Shown here: positions 17,767 to 62,436 of the stretch, piece by piece | Position numbering within the stretch: the first letter of the stretch is position 1 | How the letters are laid out: the number at the start of each line of letters is the position of its first letter | IMG/VR virus record: IMGVR_UViG_3300020201_000009 | Location: 32,001-96,000 of that record | Reading direction: 5' to 3' (one strand) | Source of the DNA: a virus | DNA length: 64,000 nucleotides | The notes under the pieces: model-generated | What the model saw: the letters and a program-made list of their open reading frames with translations, nothing else | Database searches by the model: none | Told to the model about the DNA's origin: nothing | Position numbers and translations under genes: made by a program

Positions 17767-18843
17767 TTAAACACCTCTAATAGCCGAATTATTAGATATA
17801 AGAGTATTGAAAGTATCGGCATAGGTTAAATAGCCAAAAGATCTTTTAGGTCCGGGGGCGGCGAGGGCTTGCTTTAAAACTTCAACAAATTCCTTTTCGT
17901 CCCAATCAAAGAAATTACCCTGATTAAAATCGGCACCGGGATGGAAGAAAATATTATCGTAGGCCGGAAATTTAGCGTTAGGTTTTACGACCCAAGAATT
18001 TTCGTTGTTAAAGTAATCTTTGTAGGCATGAGCATCCAAAGATACGATTTTTTTACCTAAACAAGCAGCTTGATAAACTGGTAAATCTCTACCTTCCCCG
18101 CCCGACATTCCTAAAAATACATCGCAGCTGTTTAGAAAATCATTGTATTCCGCGTTCTTAGGCATCGCTGGCATCGAAGGGAAATTATAAGGTCTGACTC
18201 CATTAAAAGTATGATGGAGAATTTTTGCATTGTCTTCTGGATTGAAGAAAGGATTGTTAACGGCGGCATGGATGGCATATTCCCCATTATTACCAAATTC
18301 TTTTTGAAGAACCCGAAGAATCTTTTGGGTTCTTTTGCGATTCTCAAATTTCCCCCCTAATCCGATAACCTTGACATCTTTTGGATATTTTCTACTGTTG
18401 ACTTCTTTAAAGTTATGAGTGTCAAAACCTAATTCTAAAAATACTACGTTCTTTAAACCATAAGATTCGAATACTTCCTTAGTGAAACTAGAAGTCACCC
18501 AAACCACGCTTTGCTGGGATAAAATATTGACCTCAGTCGGAGTCAGGGTATCGGTTTCATGGAAGGTGATTAGCTCTTGGTTGTTAGAAAACGATTCTAG
18601 GGAACCATTGATATGCCAAAGCTTGATTGTTCGAAAGGCACGAGAGTGATTCTTCATGTGACTCGTAATCTTGCTATTCACCCATTTTTCAAATTCCTGA
18701 TCTGGAACTTGAGCTGCCATTGATACGTTACCAATAGGAATAATTGTACAATCTAAATTTTTCTTATAAGCTTCACGTAGTAAAGCGATTGATGTTTGAC
18801 CCAGACTTAAGTCGTTAATTGGGAAGTGGAAAGTGACTGGCAT
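17767..18843 (-). CDS. Glycosyltransferase (GT4 / GT-B)
   Basis: GKFENRK, CDVFLGMSGGEGRDLPVYQAACLGK. Confidence 0.85.
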   Translation of the reverse strand: MPVTFHFPINDLSLGQTSIALLREAYKKNLDCTIIPIGNVSMAAQVPDQEFEKWVNSKITSHMKNHSRAFRTIKLWHINGSLESFSNNQELITFHETDTLTPTEVNILSQQSVVWVTSSFTKEVFESYGLKNVVFLELGFDTHNFKEVNSRKYPKDVKVIGLGGKFENRKRTQKILRVLQKEFGNNGEYAIHAAVNNPFFNPEDNAKILHHTFNGVRPYNFPSMPAMPKNAEYNDFLNSCDVFLGMSGGEGRDLPVYQAACLGKKIVSLDAHAYKDYFNNENSWVVKPNAKFPAYDNIFFHPGADFNQGNFFDWDEKEFVEVLKQALAAPGPKRSFGYLTYADTFNTLISNNSAIRGV

Positions 18844-19400
18844 TAAATTTCATTATGAATTTTTTCTTCTATTTTCTTTAGGTTGCGTATGTATATCATT
18901 CTCGCCCCTTGTTTTGTAATATTATAAAGTTTGGCAATTTCTGGCCAAGTTGTTTTTTTGAGACTACAATGTCTTAGTTCAAATATTTCTTGGAACCTTT
19001 TGTCATCTATATTATGAAATTCAGATTGAATGTAATCAATTAATTGTTTATCGTTACAGGTTTCTTTATCCGATAAATTTTCCAATCCAGAATCTTCAAC
19101 TTGTATAATACCTTCGTTATCATGAAGTAGTCTCTGGCATTGCCAACGAATATTTTGTCCAATCCAACTAGAAAATTTCATTTTCCGATCTGGATTGTAG
19201 TTCATTGCATAATTGTAAATATTATACATTTTATGTTCAAGTAACTCGTCTCGTTCAATTTTAGGAACGTAAGTATATTGATTTACGATATTTACATAAA
19301 TACCGGTATGACGATTTACTAATTCTAAAAGAGACGCGGAATCTTGTTTAGATTTAATCTCTTGAATCAATTGATGATCATTAACTTCGGCTGGAAGCAT
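18843..19400 (-). CDS. Phage sigma70-family RNA polymerase sigma factor
   Basis: Region 2 (ELVNRHTGIYVNIV...YNPDRKMKFSSWIGQNIRW) and region 4 HTH (IFELRH...TWPEIAKLYNITKQGARMI). Confidence 0.85.
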   Translation of the reverse strand: MLPAEVNDHQLIQEIKSKQDSASLLELVNRHTGIYVNIVNQYTYVPKIERDELLEHKMYNIYNYAMNYNPDRKMKFSSWIGQNIRWQCQRLLHDNEGIIQVEDSGLENLSDKETCNDKQLIDYIQSEFHNIDDKRFQEIFELRHCSLKKTTWPEIAKLYNITKQGARMIYIRNLKKIEEKIHNEI

Positions 19401-19671
19401 CGTCTTCTCTTTTAACTAAATTTTTAAATGCTAACTCGATAAATAAAACAACAACTGGTGAAGTTATAATAAAATGACCCGGGATAAGCAGGAAACTCCA
19501 AATTAAAATTGAGATCCAAAAAGCGCTACAGAGAGCACAGGTCGTACTATATGCTACCCATGGATTTAGATATCTATTTAAGCTCGTGCGGAAAAACGAA
19601 AGAAGGAAAGAGTGGTTATATAGAAAAAAGAAAAACCAAACCGAAAGACAATAAAAGATAAAAATTGACAT
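19381..19671 (-). CDS. Small membrane protein (CxxC-x-FW, DUF1360-like)
   Basis: Hydrophobic segments; TCALCSAFWIS. Confidence 0.6.
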   Translation of the reverse strand: MSIFIFYCLSVWFFFFLYNHSFLLSFFRTSLNRYLNPWVAYSTTCALCSAFWISILIWSFLLIPGHFIITSPVVVLFIELAFKNLVKREDDASSRS

Positions 19672-20109
19672 TTATTCATCGCCTTCTGGACTACCATCGG
19701 ACAAGCTTTGGTTTTGTAATAAATTATTAATCACAATACACAAAAACTGAATATCCTTATCTTGGATAGACATTTTATTGGTCATAATCGATCCATCTTC
19801 TAGTTCTCCTGAATAAGCGTTTACGATCTCCGCGACCGCATTTGCGGTTATCATAGAAATTTTCACGTTTTGACCCTCGGAGAAGATTGGATTGCTTAGG
19901 ACATAAATTGCCTTATCGCCATCAACTCCTAAGATTGCTTGACAGAAGTTAGACTCTTTTAGTTCTGACATTGCGAGTTTAACTAGTTCTAGTTTAATGT
20001 GTTCTTGTGGTTTACTAACAAGAACCTTCTTTAAATCTGTTGGTATTACAAATGTGTCGCAATCGATAAAATGTGCGACAATTTGGTTTCTAATTTCTAA
20101 TAGAGTCAT
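19672..20109 (-). CDS. Hypothetical protein
   Basis: 145-aa first gene of the leftward operon, directly after a promoter. Confidence 0.75.
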   Translation of the reverse strand: MTLLEIRNQIVAHFIDCDTFVIPTDLKKVLVSKPQEHIKLELVKLAMSELKESNFCQAILGVDGDKAIYVLSNPIFSEGQNVKISMITANAVAEIVNAYSGELEDGSIMTNKMSIQDKDIQFLCIVINNLLQNQSLSDGSPEGDE

Positions 20110-20118
20110 TTACGCTTT

Positions 20119-20146
20119 ATACTATTCAATTGTAAGTATAAGTCAA
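20119..20146 (-). promoter_or_regulatory. sigma70-like promoter for the leftward operon
   Basis: TTGACT-16nt-TAGTAT, 9 nt before ATG 20109. Confidence 0.65.
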
Positions 20147-20331
20147 CATTTTTTTTTTGTTAAAAGTGCATAGTAGTCCTATGTGGCGCAGACACAAAGA
20201 CTTATAAAGTTTATAGAACTCATAAACAGTTTAAAACACTTGGGGAAACTTTAAGTAAGATCTTAAAACACCAAATATTAGACGAAAAAGTCATTTTGCG
20301 GCAAGTGAAGAACTTACTACCGATAAACTTT

Positions 20332-20601
20332 AAACAACTCTTCGGAGCCATTCGTCCAGCCCTGCGGTCTGAACTCATGGAACCTTCGGTTCATTGAAAG
20401 GCAATTTACATTTGCCATTCATTGTACAGTTTCTAAGTTGTACATTTTCCTTTTACTCACCATTTAGAAAACATACAGTTATTAACTGTAAAGTCTAATA
20501 ATGTACAAGTCTAAAACGGTAGAGGAAACTAGAAGAAAAATGCCTTTATAATGAACCGAAGGTTCACAACGATTCTTTACTTTAGTAAAGATGAGTTGTT
20601 T
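20332..20601. repeat. Nested imperfect palindrome (~270 bp), candidate replication origin/cruciform
   Basis: Inverted pairs 20332-40/20593-601, 20380-95/20550-65 (perfect 16 bp), 20397-403/20541-47 and 20438-46/20500-08, plus central palindrome 20474-90; located at the coding-strand switch. Confidence 0.75.
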
Positions 20602-20749
20602 GATTGGAAAACTTTACGGAATCTCGGACTTTACATTAGAATCTTTAGACTTACTAGACTCGCGTTGCTTCTCTAAGAATACTACCGTAAGAGATTTTTA
20701 ACAAACGCACTTTACAGAAAGGAAGATTAAAAGATTCTTTCTTTTTCAA

Positions 20750-21357
20750 TAAGAGCACCGCCCGCAGGGTGGGGCTCGTTCTGCCCCGAAGGGCCATAAC
20801 CCCCCAATGGAGCCCTTTTACATCACTTTGATTGACTCAAAAAGTGCGTATTATCGGTTATTCTAACCTACCCAACGTGTGATTAACTACCGGGCCACAA
20901 TTATAGTCAAGGCATTGTCATGCTCAGGGTGATCCCGCTTTTCATCTATTCAAATTCTTTTAGGTTTCAACCGTTATGTCGTTCAGCATTTCTCATAATC
21001 CGACTCGATAACCTGTTTTGACAGATCGGGACTACAAGGCCAAACACGTATCTAACCCGAATGTGAGGGTGTTTTATCACATTCTGTATGAGAATCTTAC
21101 TAATCCGCCCCGAGTTAATTCTCGGTTTCCACGTCCCAAAGGGCTCCTGAAGGGTCTCGTGCATAGTATTTCTACGTTTAAAGTAACGCATTAAGTTTTC
21201 AACCCCAATGGCCGTCACATCTTGACGGTAGTTTGACTGTCACGCTTAAACTTGTGAAGGACTTTCAAAAGTTATCTGGCCCTCGCGCAGGGCTCTAATT
21301 ATAAAGTATTATGTTAGTTTACGCCAAAAAAGGTTAATTTTATCTCAGGCGCTCTTA
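20750..21357 (-). ncRNA. Large, highly structured non-coding RNA candidate (~608 nt), family unassigned
   Basis: 5'/3' closing stem UAAGAGCGCC/GGUGCUCUUA; nested long-range stems 21336-28/20805-797, 21147-38/20818-09 and 21094-87/20997-90; many hairpins with G-U pairs that work only on the minus strand; C(UUCG)G loop; promoter directly upstream; no credible ORF. Confidence 0.75.
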
Positions 21358-21366
21358 ACTTTCACT

Positions 21367-21394
21367 ATAATACACATAATTTTTTGAAAGTCAA
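21367..21394 (-). promoter_or_regulatory. Promoter of the large ncRNA
   Basis: TTGACT-16nt-TATTAT with an overlapping GTGTA motif, about 10 nt upstream of the 5' closing strand. Confidence 0.7.
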
Positions 21395-21507
21395 CACAGT
21401 TTGCGTTAAAACTTTTTCGAAAAACCGAATCCATAAAAAAGTTTGCATCTAAAACATGTTGACTTTTGCCGCGTTTTAAGGGAAAATCCCTTTTAAGAAC
21501 AAATAAA

Positions 21508-22404
21508 ATGAAAATTTTCTCGGATGGGGCAGACTGCCCTCAGTGTCAAAGATGGAGAATCGAACGGGGTTTCAAGAAACTCGGCCATCAAATAGTTCTT
21601 GATATCAGTAAAGCCGATTTGATATATATTAATAATCCTTGGTATGATTCTATATATAAAGTTAATATATTAAAAAATAAAGTTAAAATCATTTTAAACA
21701 TTTTAGATTTGGCCCCGCATCTTGGAGATGATTTTCCACTAGAAAAGTTAAAGAAGTGTTTAAAAATGTCAGATGCTGTTACATGTATATCTGAAACAGT
21801 CAGAGACGATTGCACGGAAAGACTTAACATAACACCCCATGTTATTTACAATCCAATCATGGATGTTTTTTTACAAAAAAATCCCAAACCAAGAAAATTT
21901 AGAGCCCTTGCATCGGGAAGATTGCTTGACCCCAATAAGAGATCGCATTTGGGACTAATGGCATTGCAGGTACTCGGCGTAAAATCAGAAGAAATCGCAA
22001 TTTGCGGCTCAGAATATCCCGGATATGGAGAAAATTTGGGCATCGTAGGGGTAGACACTTTAAGAGAATTGTATAACGAAGTCGATTTTGTTTTGGTCAC
22101 TTCCCGACATGAGGGCTTGGGCTTACAGGTTCCCGAGGCGATGGCGGCGGGGGCTATCCCGGTTATATGTAATGATCTTTCTACGAAGCAGGAATTTTTA
22201 CCATCTATTTATTTTCCAGAGTACGACGAAGTTTACCCAAATGTAATATCTTTGGTTCATTTCATTTCTCGGTATATGGGTAGTCAAGAAAATATGTTGG
22301 ATTTCAAATCTAGGATTTATACCTATTACAATGCCAAATTGGCACATAAATTTAGTGATATCGGTGTTGCCAAATCAATTCTAGACATTTATTATAAACT
22401 ATAA
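21508..22404 (+). CDS. Glycosyltransferase (GT4)
   Basis: GRLLDPNKR; LYNEVDFVLVTSRHEGLGLQVPEAMAAGAIPV. ATG 21508 preferred over TTG 21466. Confidence 0.9.
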   Translation: MKIFSDGADCPQCQRWRIERGFKKLGHQIVLDISKADLIYINNPWYDSIYKVNILKNKVKIILNILDLAPHLGDDFPLEKLKKCLKMSDAVTCISETVRDDCTERLNITPHVIYNPIMDVFLQKNPKPRKFRALASGRLLDPNKRSHLGLMALQVLGVKSEEIAICGSEYPGYGENLGIVGVDTLRELYNEVDFVLVTSRHEGLGLQVPEAMAAGAIPVICNDLSTKQEFLPSIYFPEYDEVYPNVISLVHFISRYMGSQENMLDFKSRIYTYYNAKLAHKFSDIGVAKSILDIYYKL

Positions 22405-24892: not shown

Positions 24893-26245
24893 AGGGCGAG
24901 GCTTGTAATACATAAAGTCCCAATTACTTGGAACTTAACGGTTTATATACGTTTGGCTTGTTGACAGAAGCCTGCCCGTCGAGTCCCGTAACCGCTAGGT
25001 CACTGAACGAAACAGGGAGTTTGGAACGACCGGCTATATTGATCGCCGCATTTACATCTGCGTCCAATACAGTTCCGTCCTTGCAGTAGTATCTACTGCC
25101 TTTTCTTTGACCATCCATCAATCCGGTTCTTGAGTCAATTTGACTCGTAAACCGAGGATTGATTAGCCTAACCGTTTTCCCGTATATGGGTGCCTTGTAT
25201 GTCAAAATTCTTTTGAGTTCCGCAAACGGAACTTGGCCGATCTTATTGTTGTTAGACCGACTCATCTTTTTCTTTTTCGTCTTGGCGTTCTTCAATCCCG
25301 TCAGGTCTTCCAATACCAGCGTATTTCCTTTTGTGTTTCTAATCAGCAGATTAGCTAGGACATGAGACTGATTTCTGTTCTTGTTCGCCTCTTTATGCCG
25401 AATCTTAAACAAGTGGCGTTTTGCCGACTTGGTTCCCTTTGCTTGCAGTTGTCTTTTCAGAAACCTTAACTTTCTTTTGTCCTTATTGAACTTCTTGTCG
25501 ATATAAATTTGTCCTTCGGAAGTAGCGATGGCCCGATTTACTCCGAGATCAATACCGGTCGCCAATTTATTTAATGGTTCGGGCTTGACGTTTACTTCAA
25601 ACGTAAAGGCTATCCAAATCTTGTCGTTCCGAAAGAAAAGCAAAGGGTCGCAGAATTCATACTCGGCCAACAAACCGTCCAATTTCGCGTAACGCTTGAA
25701 GTCTACAGTCACTCTTTTCTCTAACGAAGTCAGCAGTATTTTTCCCTTCTTGTAGGTGTAAATGCGCTTATCCAAGCGCATCGAAAGATTCTTCTTGTTG
25801 ATCGGACCTACAATTCTGTGTTTATTGCTTTTGACAGAGCGATACGAAGACAGACATTCAGCCTGCGCTCTTATCACTATTTGCGATGGAATTCCCGGAT
25901 TTTTGTCGCGAAATTGCCGGTAAAACTTAGCGTGAAGCTCAATCACGGAGTTTTTTCTCTTACTTCCGTCGCCATAGTGTATGACACTGGCCTCGTTAAA
26001 AGCCGACCGTTCGGCCTTTAAAACGGCAAGGATTTTTTCAAAGTCCGCTTGACTTTGAAACAAAACCTCCGTATTGTATGTTAAGTGAGTCACTTCACTG
26101 AAATATACACGCATTCTTCAACTCTTTTATACAAAAATCTTTCAATCTGTGATAAATAACTTATCTTGCTATTCCGCGAATACCGCCAAACCGGCGAGGC
26201 TTCCTCCCGGTCCTAAAGGACCGGGTTTCCGCCCCATCCCCTGAG
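24874..26245 (-). mobile_element. Non-autonomous IS200/IS605-family (IS1341-like, tnpB-only) element
   Basis: Left-end hairpin CCCGGTCC-TTTA-GGACCGGG (26225-26206) with GAAA guide; right-end hairpin (24901-24882) with CAAG guide, ending TTGAC; TAM TTCAT; no tnpA. Confidence 0.9.
24924..26114 (-). CDS. tnpB: RNA-guided endonuclease TnpB
   Basis: RuvC I GIDLGVN, RuvC II LVLEDL, RuvC III DADVNAAINIA; LTYKA and TSQ motifs. Confidence 0.95.
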   Translation of the reverse strand: MRVYFSEVTHLTYNTEVLFQSQADFEKILAVLKAERSAFNEASVIHYGDGSKRKNSVIELHAKFYRQFRDKNPGIPSQIVIRAQAECLSSYRSVKSNKHRIVGPINKKNLSMRLDKRIYTYKKGKILLTSLEKRVTVDFKRYAKLDGLLAEYEFCDPLLFFRNDKIWIAFTFEVNVKPEPLNKLATGIDLGVNRAIATSEGQIYIDKKFNKDKRKLRFLKRQLQAKGTKSAKRHLFKIRHKEANKNRNQSHVLANLLIRNTKGNTLVLEDLTGLKNAKTKKKKMSRSNNNKIGQVPFAELKRILTYKAPIYGKTVRLINPRFTSQIDSRTGLMDGQRKGSRYYCKDGTVLDADVNAAINIAGRSKLPVSFSDLAVTGLDGQASVNKPNVYKPLSSK

Positions 26246-60702: not shown

Positions 60703-61072
60703 AACGGGATTAAAAATAGTATTAGAAAAAGATTTTATAAAATACTATAAGTGGTTAGTGGAATCCCATACGTATAAAACAATACAGCTTATTTGCCCTA
60801 AACACGGCGCGCATATTACAATCGTATCGAGCAAATTACATAAAGAGTTTGATAGGATAAAATTAAGTCAGTATAACAATCAGTTAGTCAGTTTTATATA
60901 CAACCCAGAGGATATCAGAGTCGGCGGCAATGATTTTACCAATTATTGGTTGCCAGTTTTGTTTCCTCTTGGAGATCAGATTAAGATAGACCTAGGTATA
61001 GTCGAAAGTGACTTTCTAGGTTTTCATATTACAATAGCAAATAATAAAAATAAAGCAAGGTATAATCAATGA
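60662..61072 (+). CDS. 2H phosphoesterase (LigT/Acb1-like)
   Basis: Two HxT motifs, AHITIV and FHITIA, about 70 aa apart; exact start uncertain. Confidence 0.8.
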   Translation: MKSIILERKLILDETGLKIVLEKDFIKYYKWLVESHTYKTIQLICPKHGAHITIVSSKLHKEFDRIKLSQYNNQLVSFIYNPEDIRVGGNDFTNYWLPVLFPLGDQIKIDLGIVESDFLGFHITIANNKNKARYNQ

Positions 61073-62436
61073 AGTTATCAGTTAAAGCAGAAAATACAAA
61101 TTACGCAGCGGAAATATTCCTACTACCGAAACCATGTAAACACCCAAATGCCGATAAGCTTTCTTTAATTAATTTTAAAGGAAATGTAATCATTACCGGG
61201 ATGAATTCCCGCGAGGGTGATTTATATGTTTACTTTCCTTTGGAAACCGCTATTAATAAAGAATATCTCTCATGGTCTAATTCTTTCAGTCACCCAGAAT
61301 TAAATGCGAACACGAAAGTGCAGGGGTTCTTTAATGACGCTGGGAGAGTGAGGGCGGTAAAGTTGCGATCTCAACCTTCGATGGGTTATATTGTCCCACT
61401 TACCGATTTAATATTATGGTTGGATGCAAAGAAAATTAAATGTTCGGTTGAAGATTTTACGGTTGGTACAGAGTTTGATTATATTGACGAAAAGATTGTT
61501 TTGTGTGAAAAGTATGTCAATATTGAAGCTCTGCGTAAATTAGACAGTCTTACTAGAAATAATTCGAAAAAGGGAAAGGTAAAGAGAACGTCTAAGTTAG
61601 TTGACGATCAATTTAGGTTCCATATTGATACCGAACCTCTCAAGAAAAATATCCACCTTATTAAGCCCGAAGATAATATTACCGTATCGTATAAAATACA
61701 CGGATCTTCAGCTGTCTACGCCCATATTCTAGTCAAACGTAAGCTGTCCACTCTTGATAAAATCGCCCGTTGGTTCGGGGTAAAAGTGGAAGAGACTAAA
61801 TATGACTACGTATATTCAAGTCGCAAAGTTGTAAAAAATGAATATGAAGTGGAAGAAAAGCAAAACCTTCATTATTACGATTCTAATATTTGGAGTCTTA
61901 CTGGAAAAATTGTAAATGATTCTATCAAACCTGGAATTACCTTATATGGAGAATTGGTTGGGCAAACACCATCTGGCAAATGGATTCAAAAGAATTACGA
62001 CTACGGGACATTGCCGAATCAGCAAGAGTTTTATGTATATCGTATTTCAATTACAAATGCCAAAGGAGATGTTTTTGAGTTCACAACAGAACAAGTCATC
62101 TCCTACTGCTCGATGCATGGTCTAAAAATGGTGCCGATTTTCTATCGCGGCAAAGCTAAAGATCTATTCCCAGAACTAAGTATAACAGAACATTGGAATC
62201 AGAATTTCTTAGATGCCTTACTAAAAAAATATACGGAGAAAGATTGTTATATGTGTACTAATAAGGTTCCAGAAGAGGGTATTGTTGTCGCAAAAGACGG
62301 CGTTACATTTACACCTTTTAAACTGAAATCTTTTCGTTTTCTTGAGGCCGAGTCGGTTCAACTGGACTCCGGGGAAATTGATATGGAGAGTGCAGAAAGC
62401 GTTGCGCCCGTAGCTGATCCAGAACCGGCAAAATAA
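61069..62436 (+). CDS. ATP-dependent RNA ligase (Rnl2/DRB0094-like)
   Basis: N-terminal HPNADKL OB-like domain; motif I KIHGS, YGEL, FYVY, EGIVV, FKLKS. Confidence 0.85.
   Translation: MKLSVKAENTNYAAEIFLLPKPCKHPNADKLSLINFKGNVIITGMNSREGDLYVYFPLETAINKEYLSWSNSFSHPELNANTKVQGFFNDAGRVRAVKLRSQPSMGYIVPLTDLILWLDAKKIKCSVEDFTVGTEFDYIDEKIVLCEKYVNIEALRKLDSLTRNNSKKGKVKRTSKLVDDQFRFHIDTEPLKKNIHLIKPEDNITVSYKIHGSSAVYAHILVKRKLSTLDKIARWFGVKVEETKYDYVYSSRKVVKNEYEVEEKQNLHYYDSNIWSLTGKIVNDSIKPGITLYGELVGQTPSGKWIQKNYDYGTLPNQQEFYVYRISITNAKGDVFEFTTEQVISYCSMHGLKMVPIFYRGKAKDLFPELSITEHWNQNFLDALLKKYTEKDCYMCTNKVPEEGIVVAKDGVTFTPFKLKSFRFLEAESVQLDSGEIDMESAESVAPVADPEPAK

What the first reader, a model, noticed from the sequence alone, without database searches (positions are those of the whole stretch)
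20750..21357. Candidate large, ornate phage ncRNA (~608 nt) with its own promoter
Seen on the minus strand: a TTGACT-N16-TATTAT promoter (21394-21367) precedes a GC-richer block with no credible ORF, whose ends close in a 10-bp stem (UAAGAGCGCC 21357-48 / GGUGCUCUUA 20759-50). Nested inside are UAACCUUUU/GGGGGGUUA (21336-28/20805-797), a perfect GGAGCCCUUU/AAAGGGCUCC (21147-38/20818-09) and UUCUCAUA/UAUGAGAA (21094-87/20997-90). Hairpins include GCCCU/AGGGC (21293-79), CCGUCA/UGACGG (21228-12), CCGAG/CUCGG (21125-10), GAAUGUGA/UCACAUUC (21084-59), GGUUAGAU/GUUUGGCC (21057-38), UUGACUAU/GUAGUUAA (20910-883) and GCCC(UUCG)GGGC (20794-83). The many G-U pairs work only on the minus strand, which points to RNA-level rather than DNA-level selection. 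Established: large phage-associated RNAs such as ROOL and GOLLD exist, but I cannot match this one to them by eye. Inference: it may be an undescribed large RNA class. A local 3' hairpin (20777-20753) competes with the closing stem, suggesting a conformational switch.
Basis: partly seen in the sequence, partly recalled or inferred. Interest (0 to 1): 0.9.

Follow-up and report, generated by a model that had tools for sequence, protein, structure and literature searches.

The report
Orphan folded RNA beside phage origin
A 146-kb uncultured phage appears to carry a 608-base folded non-coding RNA gene that matches no catalogued family, at a spot where its relatives carry other, unrelated large folded RNAs next to what looks like the DNA replication start site.

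Summary
The promoter and every helix listed are in the sequence. The minus strand folds better than chance (z -3.3, 0/100 shuffles; 0/30 genome control windows), the plus strand does not. There is no Rfam match and I found no homologue, so covariation could not be tested for this RNA, and no expression data were obtainable. Context supports the RNA call. The block sits at the divergent junction of a glycosyltransferase-rich phage clade. About eight relatives carry a promoter plus a 430-800-nt block there, mostly folding best on the sense strand, yet unalignable to this one; the closest relative has none. Three further RNA families absent from Rfam lie in the same clade, two with tested covariation; this RNA is in none of them. 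Just downstream lies an origin-like stretch with DNA-type C-GNA-G mini-hairpins, enriched across junctions (27 vs 5.4 expected). Best reading: a stand-alone early ncRNA carried as variable cargo, working like ROOL/GOLLD but not a member (0.4). Main rival: a ColE1/T4-like origin primer (0.3). The scan noted this stretch before only on this same DNA.

The parts
21367..21394 (-). sigma-70-type promoter of the RNA (-35 and -10, 16-nt spacer); start site expected near 21360-21357
   Evidence: similar strong promoters precede the junction blocks of L166, L177, L179, L220, L260
21387..21466 (.). 31-nt imperfect inverted repeat holding back-to-back -35 boxes: divergent promoter pair (RNA leftwards, glycosyltransferase arm rightwards)
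   Evidence: I1; plus-strand site 21459-21487
20750..21357 (-). candidate 608-nt structured non-coding RNA closed by a 10-bp terminal helix
   Evidence: no Rfam hit
20750..20818 (-). 3' 69 nt that pair in nested order with four or five 5' segments in the MFE; includes a G6 run (20805-20800) and the alternative local 3' hairpin 20777-20753 (possible weak terminator)
21251..21271 (-). hairpin with an AAGUCCU loop that could pair with 21137-21133; resembles the pseudoknot core of RNA families a and b of relatives, not statistically supported
   Evidence: by eye; covariance models did not hit
20959..21217 (-). 27-nt internal direct repeat (21217-21191 and 20985-20959, 70% identical, 232 nt apart)
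   Evidence: D2
20110..20749 (.). AT-rich ORF-free stretch downstream of the RNA, origin-like: eight copies of one hexamer (about 12-fold over genome) and long inverted repeats
20552..20566 (+). DNA-type C-GAA-G mini-hairpin, 6-bp stem (CCGAAGG core)
   Evidence: one of only three with stem of 5 bp or more in the 146-kb genome
20380..20392 (-). second, inverted C-GAA-G mini-hairpin, 5-bp stem; the two lie in the arms of a 28-nt inverted repeat (20380-20407 / 20538-20565)
   Evidence: (I2)
21505..22404 (+). GT4 glycosyltransferase, first gene of the rightward arm; synteny marker
18843..20109 (-). 145-aa, 96-aa and 185-aa (sigma-factor-like) genes, first genes of the leftward arm; synteny markers

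Best explanation
A stand-alone, early-expressed structured non-coding RNA gene that this phage carries as variable cargo at its main divergent promoter junction. Host sigma-70 polymerase starts near 21358. Transcription stops at or near the weak 3' hairpin (about 20750). The 3' 69 nt then zip onto several 5' segments, closing the ends and giving a compact, nuclease-resistant RNA. It most likely acts as a folded particle, possibly a homo-oligomer as ROOL and GOLLD do, that binds or sequesters a host or phage component early in infection. Shown: promoter motif, non-coding status, above-chance sense-strand fold, interchangeable RNA-like blocks at this locus in relatives. Inferred: transcription, ends, stability, oligomerisation and any target.
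For: Fold z -3.3, 0/100 shuffles, sense strand only. Paired ends, p 0.94. At the same junction L010, L013/L016, L166, L176, L177 and L179 have a promoter plus a block folding 19-40 kcal/mol below shuffles on the sense strand, less on the other. L013 against L016 differ by 11 pair-preserving one-sided changes and GNRA-to-GNRA loop swaps. The L013/L016/L176 RNA shares its 3' core with family b (HMM E 0.001; CM E 0.09), which elsewhere sits beside a kinase gene without mini-hairpins (2 in 7.9 kb), so such RNAs do not need the origin. The closest relative (L006) keeps the origin-like repeats but lacks a folded block, and about 13 relatives have an empty kinase site: optional cargo. Family a shows strong covariation (12 of 21 pairs, 0/500).
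Against: No homologue of this RNA was found, so it has no covariation of its own. No canonical terminator, and the closing stem drops out of the MFE of transcripts 50 nt or more longer. It is about 59 kb from the tRNA cluster, unlike most ROOL/GOLLD. Palindromic 4-mers in several loops are about what chance gives. Some junction blocks fold no better than chance (L167, L011).
Confidence: 0.4

Rival explanations
1. Origin-activating pre-primer, working like ColE1 RNA II or T4 oriF transcripts. The promoter fires into the origin; the folded 5' body and G run let the 3' part stay hybridised to the template (R-loop). The displaced strand exposes mini-hairpins that load primase or helicase, and the RNA primes or opens replication.
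For: The RNA points directly into an AT-rich block with repeats and two inverted CCGAAGG mini-hairpins. C-GNA-G hairpins are enriched across 17 junction regions: 27 vs 5.4 expected (stem of 3 bp or more), 19 vs 1.0 (4 bp or more), while other C..G triloops are not (26 vs 35); other gaps of this genome have 1 in 6.4 kb. PIF1 helicase genes flank the junction in L011, L177, L260. RSF1010 ssiA has a CCGAAGG mini-hairpin (PMC13037366); T4 origins are promoter plus unwinding element (PMC4412123); ColE1 RNA II starts 555 bp upstream of its origin (PMC4555960). Conserved anatomy without conserved sequence fits.
Against: L006 has the origin-like repeats without a folded block. Related RNAs (family b) occur at sites lacking mini-hairpins. 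Paired 5' and 3' ends are typical of free stable RNAs. The junction is not proven to be the origin: GC skew follows gene direction. The junction list was chosen by me, partly after seeing the motif, and a few entries (L132, L220, L228) were picked as gaps without full synteny checks.
Confidence: 0.3
2. No functional RNA: the block is structured single-stranded DNA or fast-evolving spacer belonging to the origin, genome end or packaging region, and the promoter serves the downstream genes or only opens the DNA.
For: Two 3' hairpins read on the plus strand as 3-bp C-GNA-G DNA hairpins (20763, 20787). No conservation found. z -3.3 is moderate, and 150-nt windows inside the block are mostly unremarkable.
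Against: Fold begins at the predicted start site and closes both ends; strand asymmetry with 27 G-U pairs; a UUCG loop with a better 4-bp stem as RNA; syntenic blocks show RNA-type substitutions; the 145-aa gene has its own promoter-like sites (20163, 20146).
Confidence: 0.15
3. A far-diverged or rearranged member of a catalytic class (RNase P-like or group I-like), or of families a/b, beyond the reach of current models.
For: Paired ends, a GAAAGUCC word as in RNase P region I, and the same order of loop, partner and hairpin as family b (local alignment to L143, p 0.02 before correcting for 18 comparisons).
Against: RNase P and group I models do not hit the block; the RNase P P4 partner after the last hairpin does not pair (by inspection); models of families a and b do not hit.
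Confidence: 0.15

Closest known systems
ROOL (Rfam RF03087) and GOLLD (RF02032) RNAs; PMC12286853
   Same: Phage-encoded, 600-800-nt, ORF-free, multi-helix RNA with its own promoter, patchily present among related phages, function unknown.
   Different: No model match; not beside tRNAs; no conserved GOLLD 3' domain; oligomer or cage formation untested.
ColE1 RNA II pre-primer and T4 oriF/oriG transcripts (PMC4555960, PMC4412123)
   Same: About 600-nt folded transcript with a G run aimed at an AT-rich origin-like region; alternative folds.
   Different: Ends are paired in the best fold; no antisense RNA I found; absent in the closest relative; the phage encodes its own DnaE-like polymerase and DnaB-like helicase and no Pol A.
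RSF1010 oriV ssiA/ssiB and N4 promoter mini-hairpins (PMC13037366)
   Same: Downstream stretch has a CCGAAGG mini-hairpin on each strand within an inverted repeat, plus short repeats.
   Different: Applies to the DNA downstream, not to the RNA; the recognising protein is unknown.
Bacterial RNase P RNA type A (RF00010)
   Same: Closing stem and a GAAAGUCC word near the 5' end.
   Different: No model match; P4 partner and conserved regions II-V not found in order; 608 nt.

Membership tests
GOLLD (RF02032) | match to the conserved 3' domain model | tested here: not met
   best E 6.1, elsewhere in the genome; none in the block
GOLLD / ROOL | usually near tRNA islands | tested here: not met
   tRNAs at genome 112-117 kb, RNA at 52.7-53.4 kb
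ROOL (RF03087) | match to the family model | tested here: not met
   (no ROOL hit at E up to 10); one search also empty but its controls did not ring
ROOL / GOLLD | RNA-only homo-oligomeric cage | not testable with these tools
   needs cryo-EM or mass photometry
RNase P RNA | P4 pseudoknot between conserved regions I and V; model match | tested here: not met
   (controls rang in 11 genomes); partner strand does not pair by inspection
Group I intron | P3-P7 core model match; interrupts a gene | tested here: not met
   (no hit in the block); lies between divergent genes
OLE, HEARO, tmRNA, group II intron | Rfam model match | tested here: not met
   the TnpB gene (24924-26114) is 3.5 kb away
   only an uncorrected p 0.02 local alignment
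ColE1/T4-type origin primer | promoter upstream of and aimed at an origin-like element | tested here: met
   (origin identity itself inferred)
ColE1/T4-type origin primer | persistent RNA-DNA hybrid and priming | not testable with these tools
   needs R-loop mapping or a replication assay
Structured ncRNA in general | covariation among homologues | tested here: inconclusive
   only identical copies found
Structured ncRNA in general | transcription | not tested

The most novel reading that the evidence does not exclude
This phage clade keeps a slot beside its replication origin for interchangeable large folded RNAs: at least three undescribed families plus about eight unalignable 430-800-nt singletons, this 608-nt RNA among them. 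They would do one common job through unrelated sequences, either as ribozyme-like or cage-forming RNAs or as structured primers that license phage DNA replication.
Probability: 0.25. Interest if true: 0.85.

Novelty: new variant of a known kind. Interest (0 to 1): 0.6.

Why it matters
Only a few classes of bacterial or phage RNA above 500 nt are known, and most lack a function. This locus supplies a new candidate and a natural comparative series (present, absent, swapped) in one phage clade, next to a recognisable origin-like signal. That makes two open questions testable: what large ornate phage RNAs do, and how large dsDNA phages of uncultured hosts start replication. The side families a and b already have covarying alignments ready for structure work.

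Tried and rejected
Rfam scans at gathering and E up to 10 and single-family searches: nothing in the block. blastn of cultured phages and tblastn of the sigma-like gene (97): none. Two DNA pattern scans of IMG/VR: five chance hits (one read, inside a coding region; none extends beyond 20 nt) and zero. blastn over 35 whole related contigs: one 17-nt chance match. nhmmer over about 250 syntenic loci: only identical copies. No prophage relative in GTDB genomes, so host unknown. RNase P, permuted group I and group II readings were tried by eye and dropped. The 83-codon inner ORF was rejected as a gene. PIF1, Pol A and the phrog_4756 protein are not detectable in this genome (122-124). GC skew was rejected as origin evidence because it tracks gene strand (88). 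Papers searched showed no description of these RNAs; the library is incomplete.

Full report
Observation. The window comes from a 145,870-nt phage contig, 37.5% GC, 92% complete. The block 21357-20750 is 44% GC and holds only an 83-codon GTG ORF that gene callers ignored. The minus strand folds at -183.2 kcal/mol (z -3.35; 0 of 100 shuffles) and the plus strand at -159.3 (z -1.37). None of 30 control windows from the genome reached this level. The signal comes from long-range pairing, since most 150-nt windows are unremarkable.

Fold. The best fold is nested: the last 69 nt pair in order with 21147-38 (p 0.98), 21156-47 (0.87), 21284-77 (0.94), 21293-88 (0.51) and the 5' end (0.94). The two differ largely because the hairpins at 21293-79 and 20794-83 have nearly the same stem and can swap strands. 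The local 3' hairpin is 5.6 kcal/mol less favourable than the closing stem and is followed by a short U-rich run, so a weak terminator that later refolds is a simpler reading than a switch (inference). No canonical terminator was found, and in longer read-through transcripts the closing stem is lost from the best fold.

Known families. No Rfam family matches at gathering score or at E up to 10 inside the block. Single-model searches for GOLLD, ROOL, RNase P and group I introns found nothing there. tRNAs lie about 59 kb away. No homologue was found in cultured phages, IMG/VR patterns, 35 related contigs or about 250 syntenic loci; only two identical copies from related samples. Covariation is therefore untested for this RNA, and expression could not be examined.

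Context. The block lies at the junction where a leftward arm (145-aa gene, sigma-like gene, glycosyltransferases) diverges from a rightward arm (GT4 gene, later ribonucleotide reductase, UvsX, DnaB-like helicase, DnaE-like polymerase). This junction is conserved across a clade. In L010, L013/L016, L166, L176, L177 and L179 it holds a promoter and a 430-800-nt GC-richer block that folds 19-40 kcal/mol below shuffles on the same strand as here; L220 and L260 look similar (L220 shows no strand bias). L167, L011 and L009 are weak. The closest relative L006 (about 62% protein identity) has a 918-nt junction with short direct repeats and no folded block. None aligns to the window RNA. L013 and L016 differ by 11 pair-preserving single changes and GNRA loop swaps (the pairs were chosen by the folding program, so this is supportive, not proof).

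Sister families. Near the same genes, other clade members carry three RNA families that Rfam scans of representative loci did not hit. Family a (about 400-450 nt) has 12 of 21 pairs with compensatory changes, 0 of 500 shuffles as high, and slid controls far lower. Family b (about 400 nt) has 5 of 16 and a weakly supported pseudoknot; L013, L016 and L176 share its 3' core. Family c (about 300 nt) was aligned but not tested. Each family carries a genome-specific short direct repeat near its 3' end. About 13 relatives have an empty site. HMMs and covariance models of these families do not hit the window RNA; a resemblance to the family b core is only p 0.02 before correcting for 18 comparisons.

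Origin-like DNA. Downstream (20749-20110) is AT-rich, with one hexamer eight times (about 12-fold enriched) and a 28-nt inverted repeat whose arms each carry a CCGAAGG mini-hairpin, one per strand; these are two of only three such hairpins with stems of 5 bp or more in the genome. Across 17 junction regions C-GNA-G hairpins number 27 against 5.4 expected, other C..G triloops 26 against 35, and control gaps 1 in 6.4 kb and 2 in 7.9 kb (the junction list was mine and partly chosen after seeing the motif). PIF1 helicase genes flank the junction in three relatives. Such mini-hairpins are reported at phage G4 and RSF1010 priming sites and N4 promoters (PMC13037366). The junction is therefore probably the replication origin (inference).

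Mechanism. I favour a stand-alone early RNA carried as optional cargo (0.4): paired ends, absence in the closest relative, and family b living both at and away from the mini-hairpin region. Its likeliest mode is a folded, perhaps oligomeric particle like ROOL and GOLLD (PMC12286853), which is inference. The main rival (0.3) is a pre-primer like ColE1 RNA II or T4 origin transcripts (PMC4555960, PMC4412123), given that it points into the origin-like block and has a G run near its end. DNA-only structure (0.15) and a far-diverged ribozyme or family a/b member (0.15) remain open. The chance that it is a real transcribed structured RNA is about 0.75-0.8.

Verdict. It is a new variant of a known kind (large phage ncRNA of unknown function), not a member of ROOL, GOLLD, OLE, RNase P or the intron families. 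Interest 0.6, held down by the lack of homologues and expression data and raised by the clade-wide slot of unrelated large RNAs beside an origin-like signal.

Noticed in passing
L084:4683-5110, L091:4950-5360, L095:4662-5060, L101, L115, L141, L145, L148, L232 (+): RNA family a, about 400-450 nt, between the 145-aa-like gene and a dNMP kinase gene; not in Rfam; strong covariation; apparent pseudoknot; a 15-nt genome-specific repeat occurs twice about 200 nt apart.
   Followed up: partly
L082:460-860, L083:2620-3010, L087, L098, L107, L109, L130, L139, L143, L151; junction members L013, L016, L176: RNA family b, about 400 nt (560-590 nt in junction members); hairpin loop pairing downstream with a bulged U, a U-rich internal loop and two copies of an A-rich repeat that could alternately form a triple helix (idea untested); not hit by Rfam in the loci scanned.
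   Followed up: partly
L124:12263-12551 (-), L103, L106, L113, L116, L119, L120, L122, L125, L127, L131, L144: RNA family c, about 290 nt with own promoter and a 3' repeat, in low-GC clade members; no Rfam hit in L124.
   Followed up: partly
L010:1950-2740 (-), L166:20-680 (-), L177:3678-4260, L179:3568-4000, L220:2890-3400, L260:3190-3760: Singleton promoter-driven structured blocks at the divergent junction, mutually unalignable; L177 has a 23-bp long-range helix.
   Followed up: partly
window 20375-20600: Long imperfect hairpin (about -69 kcal/mol, z near -4 on both strands) carrying the two mini-hairpins; only weak microRNA-model hits.
   Followed up: partly
L009:1587-2783 (-), L174:1612-3024 (-): 400-470-aa phrog_4756 protein at the junction, with motifs that look polymerase-A-like by eye; absent from this genome.
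   Followed up: partly
L006:4460-4800: About six copies of a 13-nt direct repeat, iteron-like, in the closest relative; similar repeats in L220 and L145.
   Followed up: no
window 24924-26114 (-): TnpB/Cas12f-like IS605 OrfB gene inserted against the direction of the rightward arm.
   Followed up: no
L106:13640-13990: By eye a tmRNA-like gene next to a family c RNA on the opposite strand; not scanned.
   Followed up: no
window 61069-62436 (+): RNA ligase gene (phrog_968) in the replication arm; possible partner for the tRNA-like RNAs noted elsewhere in this genome.
   Followed up: no
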